A stretch of DNA of 64,000 nt, taken from the IMG/VR virus record IMGVR_UViG_3300028048_003180, positions 44,710 through 108,709 of that record. One strand, 5' to 3'. The notes beneath the pieces were generated by a model. That model searched no databases and was not told where the DNA came from. It saw nothing but the letters and a program-made list of their open reading frames with translations. This document shows, piece after piece, positions 9,601 through 46,864 of this stretch; position 1 is the stretch's first letter, and each line of letters opens with the position of its first letter. Source of the stretch: a virus. Its lineage: Duplodnaviria > Caudoviricetes. Position numbers and translations under genes: made by a program.

Positions 9601-10186
9601 CTTTATCAACGAACTTACCATATACAACGACAAAGACTATTCAGAGCGGCTCTGCGTGTCATACACAGGCTTGCTCAGGCAGGTTCTGCCGGGGGCAACG
9701 TCACCGGACGACTGGGGGAATGCCGCACCCGGAAGCATAACAAGCGTACCTTTCGCAAAGGCGACAAAGGAGGGGAACGCCTGCTTTACAAACGTCCCTA
9801 TTGAAGAGCTTCCGGCTACAAAGCGGTTCGTTACTGGCACCCAGTCGGCCTACAACCTTCAGGATACGGTGACTGACATATACGGGCAGAACCCTGAGAA
9901 TTTAGTCCTTGACCAGGCCAACCTCATAAACACGGCAGAAGGTTGCCCTGTGCTTGTTAATGAAGGAGTCCCCGTCACAAAAGCCTACGAGGGGGAGATA
10001 AAGATAGACAAGGAAAGCAAGTACGTTGCTTACTGGAATAAGGGTGGGGTCAGGTGTGATTCAGGAACCGCAAGGAGCGTATTCGAGGCGGCAAGAGAAG
10101 CCTGGCGAGCCAGCAGGAGTACGGAATGGGGACTGACACAAGAACAGGCCAGCACACTTGACCTTGAAGACATGGAGGAATTATGA
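3635..10186 (+). CDS. Tail tip / central fibre protein (gpI-like N-terminus fused to gpJ-like host-specificity protein), 2183 aa
   Basis: ATG 3635 after GGAGG; ubiquitin-like N-terminus, hydrophobic segment, P.VVG motif, FN3-like repeats, ISQLSAISANMG.I..G C-terminal motif. Confidence 0.8.
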   Translation: MAKVIVFNDIFDTRDTNVIDVEKVQTVRDVLYEGKYNVRDYSSQVEVYDPDTGETSYLAIKDDGGQALNVCVKVNGLVKDLSYEIQPADAVVVEILPASSVSKTIEGTLGTIFTVVGGLAMAVGAAMLTVGTGGIGLAVGLMVAGGLLVAAGTYMIMDSLKFDYPDEQKAGKSLTEEQRKKLEGATNQNLIDMPFPVVVGKIDVTPYTVGTQYNELVYNGSSWDEFFGSRMRTTQLLAIGYAPLLLKDIKFDELVSAHNNNNILNGELSYLNNDNDVPGHRPSTFNGKPQVADIESKWRGNKVRMEISQFGRDRSIYPFTVKQQKVDAPLLYCYDGQYAEVANDRHISWQGASLQCGMRTNTIRFSDGIPYKVVVGIDIPGGLWEANNIKEKTDTRYSKIPMNLVVQWRPVYKYISDNGLDSAGAAGDVYDRNRDGYGVLRYSGWRNFSGTSYLDGKWAGPVKQCTYTGNSLSYFVYKDGNTPAYRDGYYGYFVNNSGYTLTGTFHKVQKKTDEATLYREKFLSLIRDWERQHTTRESYINAISPTKGYVTVVNEDGTRAVMPYQAYWKSYIYPEIKESVPDSVRLSLEDQARTYARNKVASQDADWCASHQNYNNGTTWHKMSSQEIIDYSNAGKLNVSFHNEKQKTWVGPGNYIGAPQGYWHTETVRVYDYSSASSDVLIQNGVPYAQDNPYANSIAQIEVNANKGLSAGTGANSNPTWFGVRCFSLGEFSLGKTFYQRDMSEPNFQSALNIGANDVDNAKDEMRFEICAELTQEDILDLLNRNPRSIRAGEDGEVPELLGKTNCIIDSIQVRVVRLTPCYIDNNSGEIKYKYSDVVKWSYLRTYCLDKQRLLDSIDNKTEDAIVGGKAVKIAPIDCSLETFDSRDPDIHEYPTWNTWDILSFRSVPVAKEDEEKLCLLGVEAEPDPLGVMSDSLNKISLTAHAVTPSLRSNYIRYWYTDGIGYWKYDSYDTLETKDSEELYLTFSQRDFRWKRTTAEEFTETPKSVLKKNGTTRVGYYFSEMHNAWDKKWFPAKIEKRQCIQYITDANGEIVYNEAGDPLIEMTRDGNDWIPFIYKEMARNTDSLGRWVASNAFLRTFTEQNSIGQLLGFACGQSLGRNAYFYNSLNDDKFIRYWYDDVSKGKYYYFDTDDTVLDLEHKPVWSDEGDPYDLPQWTYDGWAEGSEIEFRSASLTEIGSGYYYSIRKADNAFNMMALKEAFEYTEAIDIGKSAVGPIPYKCNMYITNQQKALALMQTILVTARAFWFFDEYGRFEVHNDKPKKNPVLMITDENSLQSSNTRDFSRGIAGYHITFQDESNGFQTGEVYVLREGQTRNSHTRDIIDQTINGVTNAEQAWCLGAYMLACSITQKESWSRKLNHVGGSLTIGSLVSVQSSTLMIGTDTSGRIVRLIEDENFIYGFICDLTYDYREEYGQNGENVQGCSIFQAGAKSHSKVVTLRFASAAQQQQGITVETEDPEYAINSGTYANLKGQTNLVLFEKKIIKQTERELEQGNDEETGTKVFTQFIPKPGDVVAFGNVGTITKLGVVYQLSFDEKHHVTAGIYPYYESIYHAGRSLPVLESSMTKLPRNDNAPVDFSATFSDVSAAIDEANKNTAAAINGLVNGGGDSSAVPDAPVMLEAKAFEKEILLKARADGAGLKNSVVEVDWQLFKWTPDVETADENLWDWEDAGTTPTLSGEYVFDRDTDGYPEREDLNGTESAWFFRCRIKNQYGNDSEWSRKMAVQTYRYGTWLLGAPAIVPRVTSRCVTLKLSQPPRAGDREQYGTVRYRIEVMRPDIDENYFKPSIDLNPYAAEENYKDGEGYVISDGTYIQVMPLKGQDSELIENTLYMFRVTAENETSISESSVINVITECDSIRDIVKARETAKEAYISQLSAISANMGCISSGSFNGSDTNFWELSSFIDDFNVNHHEGAFRVGGVDEFLHVIPVDEDGNDITSDTPVSVEPASYRIEFQIGNFKVKSDQTNFINELTIYNDKDYSERLCVSYTGLLRQVLPGATSPDDWGNAAPGSITSVPFAKATKEGNACFTNVPIEELPATKRFVTGTQSAYNLQDTVTDIYGQNPENLVLDQANLINTAEGCPVLVNEGVPVTKAYEGEIKIDKESKYVAYWNKGGVRCDSGTARSVFEAAREAWRASRSTEWGLTQEQASTLDLEDMEEL

Positions 10187-16044: not shown

Positions 16045-16269
16045 ATGGACAAGTGGACGGACAATCCTGAAGACAGGACGGTGGATGCCATCACGAGGCG
16101 TTACAAGGTGTGCAGGAAACGCACGGAGGCACTTTGCAAAAAGCACGGAGGGGATGATTTTTCAGAACCCTTGCCCGGTCAACAACCCCCACCTAAAGGA
16201 AGGGGCTTGCAAAAGCCCTTGTTGACTAGACCAAGTGCTTCGGGCACTACGTTATCCGTGAATACATAG
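16045..16269 (+). CDS. Hypothetical protein whose 3' end is supplied by the inserted element
   Basis: SD aaggaagggg; runs into the element at 16178. Confidence 0.45.
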   Translation: MDKWTDNPEDRTVDAITRRYKVCRKRTEALCKKHGGDDFSEPLPGQQPPPKGRGLQKPLLTRPSASGTTLSVNT

Positions 16270-16440
16270 GCACCAGTGGATGTTCGGTCTAGTCCACTGC
16301 TCTGCGGTACATGGTTAAACAGTTCTGAGGGGTAGGAACAGTGCTGTGTACTTAAAACCACGGAATAACATCGTCTAAGACCGCAAACAGACCTGGGTAA
16401 GTCTGAGCCGGTTCTTGTTACCGGCTGTTAAACTGCCTAA
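16178..16440 (+). ncRNA. omega-RNA / HEARO-like RNA
   Basis: Ordered motifs GTCAAC..CCCC..CTAAAG..GGGGCTTG..GTTGACTAG, ACTACGTT, AGGCACC..GGATG..AGTCC..GCTCTGCG, GTTAAACAG, ACAGTG, AAAACC..TAACAT; 3' limit approximate. Confidence 0.75.
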
Positions 16441-44126: not shown

Positions 44127-44747
44127 TTAAGCAACATTAGCTTCCTTGATTGCAAGGGCTTTAAGAGCGTCAATGGTCTTGTTGAGGATTGCGGAAACGT
44201 CTGCATTGTCTGTTTTTGCCAATTCGGAAACTTTGCCGATAATGCGGTCAAGCTCGGAAACTTTAGGTTCGGGCAAATCCGCCTCTTCCAGAATGTCCGC
44301 AATCTGGGAATCCGCCTGTTTTGAAGTCTTGGGCGCAACAGGTTCAGCAGGCACAATCTGGATAAGGTTAGGCACAAATTCACGGAAAACAAGGTTAAGC
44401 TGACGTGTAGACTTATTCTCGATAACCTCGGCCATAAGCAAACCTTCCTTAAAGGAAAGCTCACCTGTTGCAACTTTTGCATAGAACAGGCGCAGAGCGT
44501 TTGAAACGTCGGACGGTGAGAACATGTCCGATGCTGTAAATGTGCCTTTTCCGTTCCATCGACTTGCAACACGGCCAAAGAACTTTGAAAGCGGAATCTG
44601 AACACCCTTTGACGCACTGGACATCATAACACCCACAAGAATTTCCACTTTGCGGGAAACTTTAGACGGCATTTTATATTCTTTGGTGCCGTAATCCAAA
44701 GCACGTGTACTTTCGCCATAAGTCTTATAAAGGTCTTTTACGTTCAT
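44127..44747 (-). CDS. Hypothetical protein (206 aa)
   Basis: Start MNVKDLYK after AGGGGG; codon usage typical of a highly expressed gene. Confidence 0.7.
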   Translation of the reverse strand: MNVKDLYKTYGESTRALDYGTKEYKMPSKVSRKVEILVGVMMSSASKGVQIPLSKFFGRVASRWNGKGTFTASDMFSPSDVSNALRLFYAKVATGELSFKEGLLMAEVIENKSTRQLNLVFREFVPNLIQIVPAEPVAPKTSKQADSQIADILEEADLPEPKVSELDRIIGKVSELAKTDNADVSAILNKTIDALKALAIKEANVA

Positions 44748-44768
44748 AATAGAACCCCCTAAAATAAA

Positions 44769-45490
44769 ATAAGCCTTCCATACAGAAGGCTTATATACCC
44801 TACCCAAGAATTGAACTTGGGAACGCTTGCTAGACGTCATTGTGCCGTTAAGGGTACTATATGCAAGAACTGAATAACTTGCTTGCGGCAGATACAGAAA
44901 ACTTCTATATCCCGCTGATAGTCAGTTTTTAACCGTAGTTGCTTGCTTTTAGTCCGTAGACGTGAAAAATTTGGGAACAAAGCATAACCCATAAACTTAT
45001 AAGTTCTTACCACCCTTCCAAAACTCACCATAACGCATCGTGCAGAATACGGCTTGCAATCCATCCCTTAGTGGGTACACCTTATAAGAGTTTGTTTAGT
45101 GTCCAGTTCACTTATCAAAAATCTTTTGTTAGGCTGGAAAAATCTTTAACCACTCTAGGGAGTAATTCTAAGAATTACGCGGAATTCCTAGACACTTGCC
45201 TAAAGTTTTCGATTCAAGGGCGCTTTAATGCGCTATTACAGTGGTTAAACGGTTCACTGTTGCCGTTATGTGCTTGTTAACACCTTTTACAAGATGCCCA
45301 CTTTTCAACGCGCTAACACTCACAAGCGCGGATTTTTTCAACTATCAGCTTTTCTGCTGATGCGCCTTTACATCTACCGATAGCGCAATGGTAGTTACTA
45401 CATAAGGCATTTTTTATACTGATTACCCATTCAGTATCTAGGTTTTAATCCCTAGGTTTTGACGCTTAAATAAAATCTTTTAAGCGTCTA
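44769..45490. ncRNA. Candidate large structured non-coding element
   Basis: More than 12 stems in about 720 nt with no credible ORF. Confidence 0.5.
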
Positions 45491-45513
45491 ATCTAAAGAC
45501 TAATTTTTTCATA

Positions 45514-45726
45514 CTACTGTAAATCCCTTATATATCCGCCAATATCATTGGTATTAAAGTTTTCAAACTCAACACCATTTAAGTAAGTTACCACTTCAAA
45601 CTTGCTTTTATAGTTATTCCAATCACCCTTAGCAAACTGTAAATACATTCCTTCTTCTGAAAGAAGTTTATAACCGTTATTCAACATCATGTCTTTAATC
45701 TCTTCATTGTTCATAGTCTTATTCAT
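45514..45726 (-). CDS. Hypothetical protein, first gene of the leftward early operon
   Basis: 70 aa; AAGGGG SD. Confidence 0.6.
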   Translation of the reverse strand: MNKTMNNEEIKDMMLNNGYKLLSEEGMYLQFAKGDWNNYKSKFEVVTYLNGVEFENFNTNDIGGYIRDLQ

Positions 45727-45787
45727 AGTCTTTACCCCTTGTCTTTCAATCTCTTTTGGCTTGCCCTTGCGCTTGCCTTATGGTTAT

Positions 45788-45816
45788 AATATACCATGTA
45801 TTAACATGGTATGCAA
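45788..45816 (-). promoter_or_regulatory. Promoter TTGCAT-17-TATATT overlapped by palindromic operator ATACCATGT-N4-ACATGGTAT
   Basis: 9-bp arms at 45791-45799 and 45804-45812. Confidence 0.65.
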
Positions 45817-46237
45817 TAGCAAAAATATTTTATTTAGGATATACCCCCGGGAGGGGAGTTTTGGCCGGGGTGGAGGGACTTACCCCCGAGAATATTTTTT
45901 CAGATTTTCGGCCAAAAAACTTTAGTACAATTAAAGAAACTTTAGTATTTATAAAGTATACGTAATATAAGAAGGGATATAATAGTATCTTGTATATGGT
46001 TAAGGTTGTAAAATATAATATAAATACATGGTAATCTATAAGGTTTCTTATCTGATTCGATGTAGAAACGGTGTAGATTATAAGTGGTAGTTTGTATACT
46101 CCCTCTAGGGGAAAAATGTACTCTCTTTAGTTATTTTACAAGTAGGTACATGGAAATTTATATAAATTATGTATTTTTCGATGTATTTTTCTTGATTTTT
46201 ACACAAAGAAGCATTATATTATAAGAGAGAGGTGCTT

Positions 46238-46864
46238 ATGGAATGCAAAGATTATAAGGATTGTATTGATTTTTCCCCGCTTAAAGTGACGCTTGCGGCA
46301 AAGGGTTTTACCCGTAAAGCCTTGGCGGAAATGGCGGGTACTCAGGATTATGTAATCAATAATTACATAGCTGGCAGGACGTTTCCTGACACTGAGAAGC
46401 TGGCAAAGTTATGTGCAGCCCTTCAATGTTCTGTTGATAAGGTTGTCCGTTTTAGTGGTTATGACATAAAGGATAGGTTCAAAACCCCTTGGGATGGTTA
46501 TGGGGCTCCTAGATGGAATTGTCTTACTTATGAGCCGTTAAGGATGCTTTTTATAAATGTTTATAAGGATGATTGGGTAAATAAGTTGACAGAGTTCTAC
46601 GAGAAAATTCCCCGTCCTGAAATGTCAAGTGAAAAGAAAGAAGCTATAGAAAAAATGAAGCAGGCAAAAGCTGCTTTAATACAGGAAAAGATTGAAAAGG
46701 GGGAATATAAAGGGGCTAAGAATAATTACAGGACTACCGGGGTTGGCTTACTTTTTGAGATTCGTACAAAGATTTCTCAAGACAAACCCATTCCCCTTCC
46801 CCGTCTCTACGACATCTGCAAGGCCCTTCATTGTACCCCAGACTGGGTTATGACGTACAACTAG
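46238..46864 (+). CDS. Regulator with two Cro/C1-type HTH domains
   Basis: LAKLCAALQCSVDKVV and LYDICKALHCTPDWVM. Confidence 0.8.
   Translation: MECKDYKDCIDFSPLKVTLAAKGFTRKALAEMAGTQDYVINNYIAGRTFPDTEKLAKLCAALQCSVDKVVRFSGYDIKDRFKTPWDGYGAPRWNCLTYEPLRMLFINVYKDDWVNKLTEFYEKIPRPEMSSEKKEAIEKMKQAKAALIQEKIEKGEYKGAKNNYRTTGVGLLFEIRTKISQDKPIPLPRLYDICKALHCTPDWVMTYN

What the first reader, a model, noticed from the sequence alone, without database searches (positions are those of the whole stretch)
44769..45490. About 720 nt of contiguous hairpins at the head of the early region: candidate large ornate RNA or DNA signal
Seen in an otherwise gene-dense genome, with no credible ORF: stems ataagccttc/gaaggcttat (44769-44794), cccaag/cttggg, nested tgccg/cggca around gcaag/cttgc, and tccag/ctgga. 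A multibranch domain is closed by tttaaccact/agtggttaaa (45145-45249) and holds tctaggga/ttcctaga and gtaattct/agaattac. Further stems are cttgt/acaag, cgcgct/agcgcg, atcagc/gctgat, ctacc/ggtag, atactga/tcagtat, ctagg/cctag and gacgcttaaa/tttaagcgtc (45461-45488). acagtg/cactgt (45238-45260) competes with the multibranch stem, suggesting a switch. Several G-T wobbles favour the plus strand although flanking genes are minus, so strand is unresolved. Inference: the size matches phage-borne large ncRNAs such as ROOL and GOLLD, but I cannot assign a family.
Basis: partly seen in the sequence, partly recalled or inferred. Interest (0 to 1): 0.7.

Follow-up and report, generated by a model that had tools for sequence, protein, structure and literature searches.

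The report
New large structured phage leader RNA
A prophage of a rumen Treponema carries a roughly 750-base, heavily folded non-coding RNA between its early promoter and its first conserved early gene. The RNA ends in a tRNA look-alike and a terminator, matches no known RNA family, and may control read-through into the early genes.

Summary
Window 44760-45504 has no conserved ORF and folds far better than shuffles (z -7.0 on plus, -5.9 on minus; a coding control gives -0.02).

Three related loci were found: two rumen metagenome contigs and one yak-rumen Treponema MAG. They show that this is an RNA read from the MINUS strand.
- Every conserved helix keeps pairing through compensatory changes.
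- All 29 non-Watson-Crick cells are G.U on the minus strand and would be A.C on the plus strand.

Layout:
- a conserved sigma-70-like promoter, then a 68-70-aa ORF
- a conserved 5' domain of six hairpins, two of which form an H-type pseudoknot
- a fast-evolving central domain
- a conserved 3' domain with two hairpins and a 63-nt tRNA-like cloverleaf that lacks the D arm and the variable loop
- an intrinsic terminator 7 nt before the RBS of the next gene

Rfam 15 and ARAGORN find nothing, so it is not ROOL, GOLLD, tRNA or tmRNA.

The function is inferred only. The early operon has four more conserved co-directional terminators. A small ORF followed by a large RNA resembles the conAn and put antitermination systems, so a cis-acting antitermination leader is my best guess (about 0.4).

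The scan had already flagged this same stretch from another window. It was not flagged on other DNA.

The parts
45788..45816 (-). Early promoter: -35 TTGCAT (45816-45811), 17-nt spacer, -10 TATATT (45793-45788). In this phage the spacer holds a palindrome (ATACCATGT..ACATGGTAT).
   Evidence: Both hexamers are conserved and the spacer varies in all four loci (alignment A8). Sequence read. The transcription start is inferred, not mapped.
45514..45726 (-). Small ORF (70 aa) between the promoter and the RNA. The three related loci have a 68-aa ORF at the same place.
   Evidence: The window's version is not detectably similar to the 68-aa family (E 0.26). No Pfam or PHROG match.
44759..45504 (-). 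The whole structured RNA (about 745 nt). The 5' limit is where conservation begins, just after the ORF stop. The 3' limit is the end of the terminator U-tract.
   Evidence: The ends are inferred from conservation and the terminator, not mapped.
45342..45502 (-). Conserved 5' domain:
- H0: 45502-45489
- H1: 45488-45479 with 45470-45461
- H2: 45455-45451 with 45442-45438
- H3: 45437-45431 with 45422-45416
- H4: 45394-45390 with 45378-45374
- pseudoknot stem: 45387-45383 (inside the H4 loop) with 45365-45361
- H5: 45361-45356 with 45349-45344
   Evidence: RNAalifold gives 38 pairs, 9 with double changes. Manual tables show H1, H4, the pseudoknot stem and H5 all keep standard pairs with different sequences.
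44928..45341 (-). Variable central domain. It is about 330 nt here, about 260 nt in L002 and L005, and about 420 nt of unrelated sequence in L004. It includes a window-specific multibranch insert at 45145-45249.
   Evidence: L002 versus L005 still shows compensatory changes in this domain. A possible long-range helix, AGAUUUUUGAY with RGYUAAAAACU, has one A-U to G-C swap.
44863..44927 (-). Start of the conserved 3' domain:
- single-stranded AAAAACUGACUAUC
- hairpin Pa (44915-44885): GCGG/CCGC closing a fully covarying inner stem
- hairpin Pb (44882-44863) with conserved loop UUAUUCRGUU
44795..44857 (-). 63-nt tRNA-like element:
- 7-bp acceptor-like stem
- 12-nt connector UAACGGCACAAU in place of a D arm
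- 5-bp stem with 7-nt loop CUAGCAA
- no variable loop
- 6-bp T-like arm with loop UUCAAUU
   Evidence: 24 of 24 pairs are standard in all sequences. Each of the four helices has one compensatory change. 2 of 500 shuffles reach the score and slid controls give 0. It is not called a tRNA by ARAGORN or Rfam.
44759..44794 (-). Intrinsic terminator: an 11-bp stem (44794-44769) followed by UUUUAUUUUA. The AGGGGG RBS of the next gene comes directly after it.
   Evidence: The stem is conserved with G.U and compensatory changes in all four loci.
44127..44747 (-). First conserved early gene (206 aa, unknown function). It was the anchor used to find homologous loci.
   Evidence: The AlphaFold model has pLDDT 75 and only weak winged-helix-like fold hits, E>0.009.
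46232..46864 (+). Divergently transcribed HTH (Cro/CI-type) regulator. It marks this as a lysis-lysogeny or early control region.
   Evidence: Pfam HTH_26 7e-12; PHROG transcriptional regulator and repressor families.

Best explanation
Shown:
- Window 44759-45504 encodes a roughly 745-nt highly structured non-coding RNA on the minus strand.
- It has a conserved pseudoknotted 5' domain, a rapidly evolving central domain and a conserved 3' domain.
- The 3' domain ends in a tRNA look-alike without a D arm, followed by an intrinsic terminator.
- It sits in a conserved arrangement: early promoter, small ORF, RNA, terminator, early genes.

Inferred:
- The RNA is made as the first part of the leftward early transcript, from the promoter at 45816-45788.
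- It acts in cis on the RNA polymerase that has just made it. That polymerase can then read through the RNA's own terminator and the further conserved terminators between the first early genes.
- This would be a processive antitermination leader in the manner of HK022 put or pLS20 conAn2. The upstream small protein might act as a processivity partner.
- The tRNA-like end would then be a docking or processing handle. Its role is not explained.
For: RNA and strand:
- z-scores are -5.9 to -7.0, against -0.02 for a coding control.
- RNAalifold finds 9 + 9 pairs with double compensatory changes in the 3' and 5' domains.
- In the tRNA-like core, 100% of cells are paired and there are 5 double changes.
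- L002 versus L005: 14 pairs differ, 7 by double and 7 by single changes, and none is broken.
- The sense strand has 29 G.U cells and 0 A.C cells. Mirrored onto the plus strand this becomes 0 G.U and 29 A.C.
- Both pseudoknot stems covary.

Context:
- The promoter hexamers are conserved and the spacer varies.
- The terminator lies directly before the RBS, with no room for a promoter.
- Further co-directional terminators lie at about 44105, 43519, 43133 and 41451. The equivalent terminators are conserved in L005 and L004.
- A small ORF immediately followed by a 260-600-nt RNA element at the head of a long, terminator-studded operon is the published conAn architecture (PMC8191782).
- Promoter-proximal antitermination RNA in a phage early operon is known from HK022 put (PMC9378689 abstract).
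Against: - There is no expression, end-mapping or functional data.
- Only four sequences are available, three of them effectively distinct, so formal covariation statistics are weak.
- The RNA is 2-10 times larger than put, EAR or conAn2.
- The tRNA-like domain has no role in any known antitermination RNA.
- No boxA-like element stands out. The best match to Treponema rrn boxA ranks 76th of 217,394 positions in the phage, as expected by chance.
- The small ORF is not conserved between the window and its relatives and has no known family.
- A protein antiterminator may be hidden among the many unknown early ORFs.
- The terminators could simply be leaky attenuators.
Confidence: 0.4

Rival explanations
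1. It is a stand-alone, stable, trans-acting large ncRNA, in the sense of GOLLD, ROOL or OLE. It is released at its own terminator and perhaps trimmed at the tRNA-like end. It would act as a scaffold, cage, or decoy for tRNA-binding host or phage proteins. Read-through into the early genes would be incidental.
For: - It has a strong terminator exactly at its 3' end.
- Unpaired segments and loops are very highly conserved: 60 nt around H2-H3 are identical in all four loci, and so is the 12-nt connector. This suggests tertiary contacts or a bound partner.
- The tRNA-like module has a T-loop consensus.
- Its size and phage location resemble GOLLD and ROOL (my knowledge of those families).
- The same provirus carries at least one other tRNA-like element.
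Against: - No separate conserved promoter is visible between the small ORF and the RNA.
- No match to any Rfam family.
- The downstream gene has no promoter of its own, so read-through must happen.
- The central third is too variable for a fixed architecture.
Confidence: 0.3
2. It is a P4 CI or P1/P7 C4-type immunity RNA. The leader would be transcribed in the lysogen and cut by RNase P at the tRNA-like element. The product would pair with the same transcript to force termination or block translation of early genes.
For: - It lies in the leader of the early operon next to a repressor gene.
- A tRNA-like acceptor/T stack is a plausible RNase P substrate.
- A terminator immediately precedes the first gene.
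- RNase P processing of P4 CI and P1 C4 is from my own knowledge. I did not retrieve a paper on it (one search found none directly).
Against: - No complementarity of 13 nt or more exists between the RNA and any other part of the 108.7-kb provirus. The 11-12-nt matches are at chance level.
- No match to any phage-RNA family in Rfam.
- The RNA is about ten times the size of CI or C4.
- A protein repressor is present.
Confidence: 0.1
3. It is a DNA-level signal formed by hairpin or cruciform DNA: a replication origin, a packaging or recombination site, or an att-like tRNA fragment.
For: - The inverted repeats are dense and both strands fold well.
- The next gene's model shows weak winged-helix and 'replisome organizer' fold hits.
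Against: - All 29 non-Watson-Crick cells are G.U on one strand only.
- The pseudoknot and the tRNA-like fold covary.
- There are no iterons or direct repeats.
- The tRNA-like part matches no tRNA gene or other place in the host-like MAG. DNA search of 401 genomes of its family, and the covariance model R1 in 151 genomes of its genus, found it only in the prophage. It is therefore not an att copy of a tRNA 3' half.
Confidence: 0.05
4. It consists of unannotated or decayed small protein genes.
For: There are short ORFs of 37-75 aa in the window.
Against: - The ORFs are not conserved in position, frame or sequence between loci.
- There are 1-nt indels in conserved blocks.
- Substitutions are compensatory for pairing rather than synonymous.
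Confidence: 0.02

Closest known systems
conAn bipartite antitermination system of pLS20 and other Gram-positive conjugative plasmids (PMC8191782)
   Same: - A small protein gene is immediately followed by a large non-coding RNA element (260-600 bp there).
- The pair lies just downstream of the main promoter, at the head of a very long operon that contains several intrinsic terminators.
- The RNA elements are poorly conserved in sequence between systems.
   Different: - The host is a spirochaete prophage, not a Firmicute plasmid.
- The RNA here is longer (about 745 nt), carries its own terminator at its 3' end and has a tRNA-like domain.
- No similarity of the small ORF to ConAn1 could be tested.
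- No functional data exist.
HK022 put RNA (PMC9378689), a cis-acting antitermination RNA of a lambdoid phage
   Same: - It is a promoter-proximal structured RNA in a phage early operon that precedes terminators.
- The proposed mode of action is the same: nascent RNA modifying its own polymerase.
   Different: - put is a two-stem-loop element of about 70 nt (my knowledge). The element here is ten times larger, with a pseudoknot and a tRNA-like module.
- No sequence or structure homology was shown.
GOLLD and ROOL large ornate RNAs, often carried by phages
   Same: - Size class of 600-800 nt.
- Many hairpins and a pseudoknot.
- Phage-borne.
- A variable part beside a conserved part.
- Association with tRNA-like sequence (my knowledge of these families).
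   Different: - No match to any Rfam model, even at E<=10.
- Here the position is fixed in an early-operon leader and the RNA ends in a terminator just before a gene.
tRNA and tRNA mimics (tmRNA tRNA-like domain, bacterial Y-RNA-like YrlA, D-armless mitochondrial tRNAs)
   Same: - 7-bp acceptor-like stem.
- T arm with a UUCAAUU loop.
- 5-bp stem with a 7-nt loop whose second base is U and whose sixth is a purine.
- A GG in the connector that could meet the T loop.
   Different: - No D arm, no variable loop and no encoded CCA.
- No G3.U70, although the loop triplet AGC would read alanine.
- Not detected by ARAGORN in bacterial or mitochondrial mode, nor by Rfam.
- It is embedded at the 3' end of a 745-nt RNA.
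P4 CI RNA and P1/P7 C4 RNA (immunity RNAs processed from early leaders)
   Same: - Leader location in a temperate phage.
- A tRNA-like feature that could recruit RNase P.
- Control exerted at a terminator or RBS just downstream (my knowledge).
   Different: - No complementary target sequences were found.
- The RNA is far larger.
- No Rfam match.

Membership tests
ROOL / GOLLD (Rfam families) | A match to the family covariance model at or near the gathering score | tested here: not met
   No match in the window at gathering. No match in 44300-46000 at E<=10. No match in the three homologous loci at gathering. That Rfam 15 contains both families is my own knowledge.
tRNA | 7-bp acceptor stem, T arm with UUCRANY loop, and anticodon arm of 5 bp with a 7-nt loop | tested here: met
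   All three helices are present, 100% paired, and each has a compensatory change.
tRNA | A D arm and a variable loop of 4 nt or more | tested here: not met
   A 12-nt unpaired connector replaces the D arm. There are 0 nt between the anticodon-like stem and the T stem.
tRNA | Recognition by tRNA finders or models | tested here: not met
   ARAGORN finds none in the window or the whole provirus. Mitochondrial mode does not recover the fold described here; its two low-threshold calls are other folds. Rfam on the 96-nt slice at E<=10 gives 0 hits.
tmRNA | A tRNA-like domain formed by the 5' and 3' ends, plus a tag reading frame | tested here: not met
   ARAGORN tmRNA search is negative. The acceptor-like stem is local, closing only 49 nt.
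conAn-type bipartite antitermination | A small protein gene directly followed by a large non-coding RNA element at the start of a long operon | tested here: met
   A 68-70-aa ORF is followed by about 680-800 nt of non-coding structured RNA in all four loci. The operon runs leftward from about 45790 to about 22470.
conAn-type bipartite antitermination | Several intrinsic terminators inside the operon downstream of the element | tested here: met
   Window 44794, about 44105, 43519, 43133 and 41451. Conserved in L005 and L004.
conAn-type bipartite antitermination | Homology of the small protein to ConAn1 | not tested
   No ConAn1 reference sequence was available through the tools. Pfam and PHROGs give nothing for the small ORFs.
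conAn-type / put-type antitermination RNA | Cis-acting suppression of termination | not testable with these tools
   This needs reporter or in-vitro transcription assays.
Nus-dependent nut / rrn-type antitermination site | A boxA element resembling the host rrn boxA | tested here: not met
   A weight matrix was built from four Treponema rrn leaders. The best hit in the RNA ranks 76th of 217,394 positions in the provirus, where about 0.4 such hits are expected by chance in the region.
P4 CI / P1 C4 immunity RNAs | Complementarity between the RNA and target sequences in the same operon | tested here: not met
   No reverse-complement match of 13 nt or more anywhere in the provirus. The 11-12-nt matches are at chance frequency.

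The most novel reading that the evidence does not exclude
This is the founding example of a new class of large phage regulatory RNA. A pseudoknotted 5' domain and a D-armless tRNA mimic together reprogram the host transcription machinery (processive antitermination) or capture a tRNA-binding enzyme. This happens at the very start of the lytic programme of a spirochaete phage.
Probability: 0.3. Interest if true: 0.8.

Novelty: new variant of a known kind. Interest (0 to 1): 0.62.

Why it matters
- Large structured bacterial and phage RNAs over 500 nt are rare. Each new class (OLE, GOLLD, ROOL, raiA, HEARO) has opened new biology.
- Only three RNA-based processive antitermination systems are known: put, EAR and conAn. 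A fourth, from a spirochaete phage and with an unexplained tRNA mimic, would widen that field.
- It would also give a handle on gene control in rumen Treponema phages, about which almost nothing is known.
- On the practical side, gene callers currently run a false N-terminal extension of the next gene across the terminator and the tRNA-like element.

Tried and rejected
Searches for a known family or more copies:
- Rfam at gathering and at E<=10, on the window, on a 96-nt slice and on the three homologous loci: nothing in the region.
- ARAGORN in bacterial, relaxed and mitochondrial modes: no tRNA or tmRNA.
- INPHARED phages by blastn and by tblastn of the neighbouring protein: no match.
- Four exact-pattern scans of IMG/VR with conserved motifs: only the contig already known.
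- Protein-anchored scans of viral, genome and metagenome collections: three distinct loci in total.
- Whole-genome searches found the locus only in the one MAG: DNA in 401 family genomes, the protein profile in 401 + 338 genomes, and covariance model R1 in 151 genomes.
- R1 on the whole provirus: no second copy.

Tools that were not available:
The DNA around about 20 further protein homologues (P0002-P0022) could not be fetched.

Ideas tested and dropped:
- boxA/nut idea: not above chance. The U-rich island I first took for boxA more likely forms a long-range helix.
- Trans or cis base-pairing targets: none above chance.
- att-site or tRNA-fragment idea: no similar tRNA in the host-like MAG or its relatives.

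Neighbouring proteins:
- Fold of the 206-aa neighbour: only weak winged-helix-like hits, E>=0.0095.
- ESM Atlas leads were below a usable score.
- The small ORF family has only six clusters, all in the same lineage.

Full report
WHAT IS THERE

The window is the right-hand 64 kb of a 108.7-kb provirus record from IMG/VR. The host is almost certainly a rumen Treponema. The neighbouring protein's named relatives come from Treponema MAGs, and one homologous locus lies in a yak-rumen Treponema sp. MAG.

The region 44750-45513 has no credible gene. It lies between two minus-strand genes:
- a 70-aa ORF at 45726-45514
- a 206-aa ORF at 44747-44127, whose true start is the ATG behind an AGGGGG RBS

The 237-aa version produced by gene callers runs across the terminator and is not supported by the family alignment. 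A Cro/CI-type HTH regulator (46232-46864, plus strand) is transcribed divergently.

Minimum free energy is far below dinucleotide shuffles:
- z -6.99 on the plus strand and -5.91 on the minus strand
- z -0.02 for a same-length coding control from the same operon
- z -2.8 for the most divergent homologue

HOMOLOGUES

Protein-anchored scans found three further loci with the same gene order:
- L002 (the same contig as L003 and L006)
- L005
- L004 (the Treponema MAG)

BLAST and MAFFT show a mosaic:
- a conserved 5' block (window 45504-45332)
- a conserved 3' block (44996 or 44930 to 44750)
- a middle that is only partly alignable with L002 and L005, and not at all with L004

Nothing else turned up in IMG/VR motif scans, INPHARED, about 740 Treponema-family and genus genomes, or with a covariance model. 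About 20 more protein homologues exist in Logan and ENA assemblies.

IT IS AN RNA, AND THE STRAND IS MINUS

RNAalifold on the 3' block gives 43 pairs, 9 of them with both sides changed. On the 5' block it gives 38 pairs, 9 with both sides changed.

For the 100-column tRNA-like core:
- 24 of 24 pairs are standard in every sequence
- each of the four helices carries one compensatory double change
- only 2 of 500 column shuffles reach the observed values
- partners slid by 1-3 columns give no covariation

L002 and L005 are 90% identical. They differ at 14 predicted pairs, 7 by double changes and 7 by G.U-type single changes, and none is broken. This includes helices in the 'variable' middle.

The strand test is clear. 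On the window's minus strand the consensus helices contain 29 G.U cells and no A.C cell. Mirrored onto the plus strand they contain 29 A.C mismatches and no G.U. The one wobble that favours the plus strand (tctaggga/ttcctaga) lies in a window-specific insert that cannot be tested.

No reading frame is conserved, and conserved blocks contain 1-nt indels that lengthen a hairpin on both sides.

ANATOMY (minus strand, 5' to 3')

1. Promoter. The hexamers TTGCAT and TATATT (45816-45788) are conserved in all four loci while the 17-nt spacer varies.
2. Small ORF. It is 68-70 aa in all loci, but the window's copy is not detectably related to the others.
3. 5' domain (45502-45342).
   - H0.
   - H1 (10 bp). 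L004 has 13 bp of different sequence with four G.U pairs.
   - H2 and H3 are invariant, loops included.
   - A conserved A-rich linker, AAAAAAUGCCUU.
   - H4 has part of its loop (UGCGC, UGUGC or UGUAC) pairing with a downstream GCGCA or GUACA. Both H4 and this second stem covary, so this is an H-type pseudoknot.
   - H5 has four different pair combinations.
4. Central domain, about 260-420 nt. A conserved island, AGAUUUUUGAY, may pair with RGYUAAAAACU at the start of the 3' domain.
5. 3' domain.
   - Pa is GCGG/CCGC around an inner stem whose sequence is completely different in the three lineages.
   - Pb has a conserved 10-nt loop.
   - A 63-nt cloverleaf-like element (44857-44795) follows.
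6. Terminator. It starts immediately after that element, with only the last 3 bases of its own stem left unpaired in the cross-locus consensus. It is an 11-bp hairpin plus UUUUAUUUUA (44794-44759), followed at once by the RBS of the 206-aa gene.

THE tRNA LOOK-ALIKE

It has:
- a 7-bp acceptor-like stem beginning with G.U
- a 5-bp stem with the 7-nt loop CUAGCAA
- a 6-bp T-like arm with loop UUCAAUU

It has no D arm (a 12-nt invariant connector, UAACGGCACAAU, stands in its place), no variable loop and no CCA. Neither ARAGORN nor Rfam recognises it. Nothing like it occurs elsewhere in the host-like MAG or its relatives, so it is not a copied tRNA 3' half of the attP kind. I treat it as a mimic, not a tRNA.

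HOW IT MOST LIKELY WORKS

This section is inference, not demonstration.
- There is no room for a promoter between the terminator and the next gene. The early genes must therefore be reached by read-through.
- The same operon has further strong co-directional terminators after each of the next genes: about 44105, 43519, 43133 and 41451.
- The equivalent terminators are conserved, with compensatory stem changes, in L005 and L004.
- An operon built like this needs processive antitermination, or at least controlled read-through.

The published conAn systems have exactly this layout: a small protein gene followed by a 260-600-nt RNA element, just after the promoter of a long operon with internal terminators. 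In those systems the RNA does the antitermination in cis and the protein gives processivity (PMC8191782). HK022 put is the phage precedent for an RNA-only mechanism (PMC9378689).

My best explanation is therefore a cis-acting antitermination leader (about 0.4).

Rivals:
- a stand-alone trans-acting large RNA or tRNA-enzyme decoy (0.3)
- a P4/P1-style processed immunity RNA (0.1)
- a DNA signal (0.05)
- hidden genes (0.02)

Tests that could have supported particular mechanisms came out negative. There is no boxA above chance and no base-pairing target. The neighbouring 206-aa protein gives no informative fold.

COMPARISON AND NOVELTY

The element is not a member of any Rfam family, and the ROOL/GOLLD resemblance is one of size class only. 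It works, if my inference is right, like conAn2 or put, but it is far larger and carries a pseudoknot and a tRNA mimic that those lack. I rate it a new variant of a known kind: a large phage-borne structured RNA, possibly an antitermination RNA.

Its known distribution is narrow, four loci in rumen Treponema prophages. That limits both the statistics and the immediate reach.

EARLIER NOTES

The scan had already noted this same stretch from an overlapping window, including the D-armless tRNA mimic and the repeated terminators. I checked those two claims and they hold. No note on other DNA resembles it.

Noticed in passing
window 44107-44004, 43519-43420, 43133-43070 (minus strand): After each of the first early genes the same module recurs: a GC-rich intrinsic terminator whose U-tract runs into (C)AUGCCC. 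At the first two sites this is followed by a variable hairpin and a conserved CCAGUGCAUGAA(A)UACUGG hairpin that ends in the GGAAGGAAGG RBS of the next gene. The terminators and the AUGCC motif are conserved in L004 and L005. The RNA's own linker reads AAAAAAUGCC.
   Followed up: partly
window 45840-45895 and 45915-45965: Upstream of the early promoter lies a conserved GC-rich element (GGGGG..CCCC..CCCGGGGG) with lineage-specific changes. Beside it are two direct repeats of ACTAAAGTTT that are invariant in four loci. These may be operators or a bidirectional terminator.
   Followed up: no
provirus record about 9860-9950 (about 34.8 kb before the window start): Another tRNA-like piece: T arm AGGGG-TTCGATT-CCCCT, followed by GCTTCC, which can pair with an upstream GGAAGC. 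ARAGORN calls no tRNA anywhere in the 108.7-kb record. Model R1 does not match it, so it is not a homologue of the element reported here.
   Followed up: partly
window 16178-16388 (+): A full-length HEARO (IscB-type omega RNA) match: 154.9 bits against a gathering score of 83.
   Followed up: no
window 45145-45249: The multibranch hairpin bounded by the 10-bp inverted repeat tttaaccact/agtggttaaa is an insertion relative to L002 and L005. Its one wobble favours the plus strand. It may be a lineage-specific expansion or a small palindromic insertion.
   Followed up: partly
window 44748-44840: Gene callers extend the 206-aa gene to 237-257 aa (P0001, P0004) by reading through the terminator and the tRNA-like element. 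12 of the 14 aligned homologues start at the internal Met.
   Followed up: yes
window 45514-45726 versus L002:3116-3322, L005:3112-3318, L004:3019-3225: The small ORF between the promoter and the RNA is a conserved 68-aa protein in three loci. In the window it is replaced by an unrelated (E 0.26) 70-aa ORF at the same position.
   Followed up: partly
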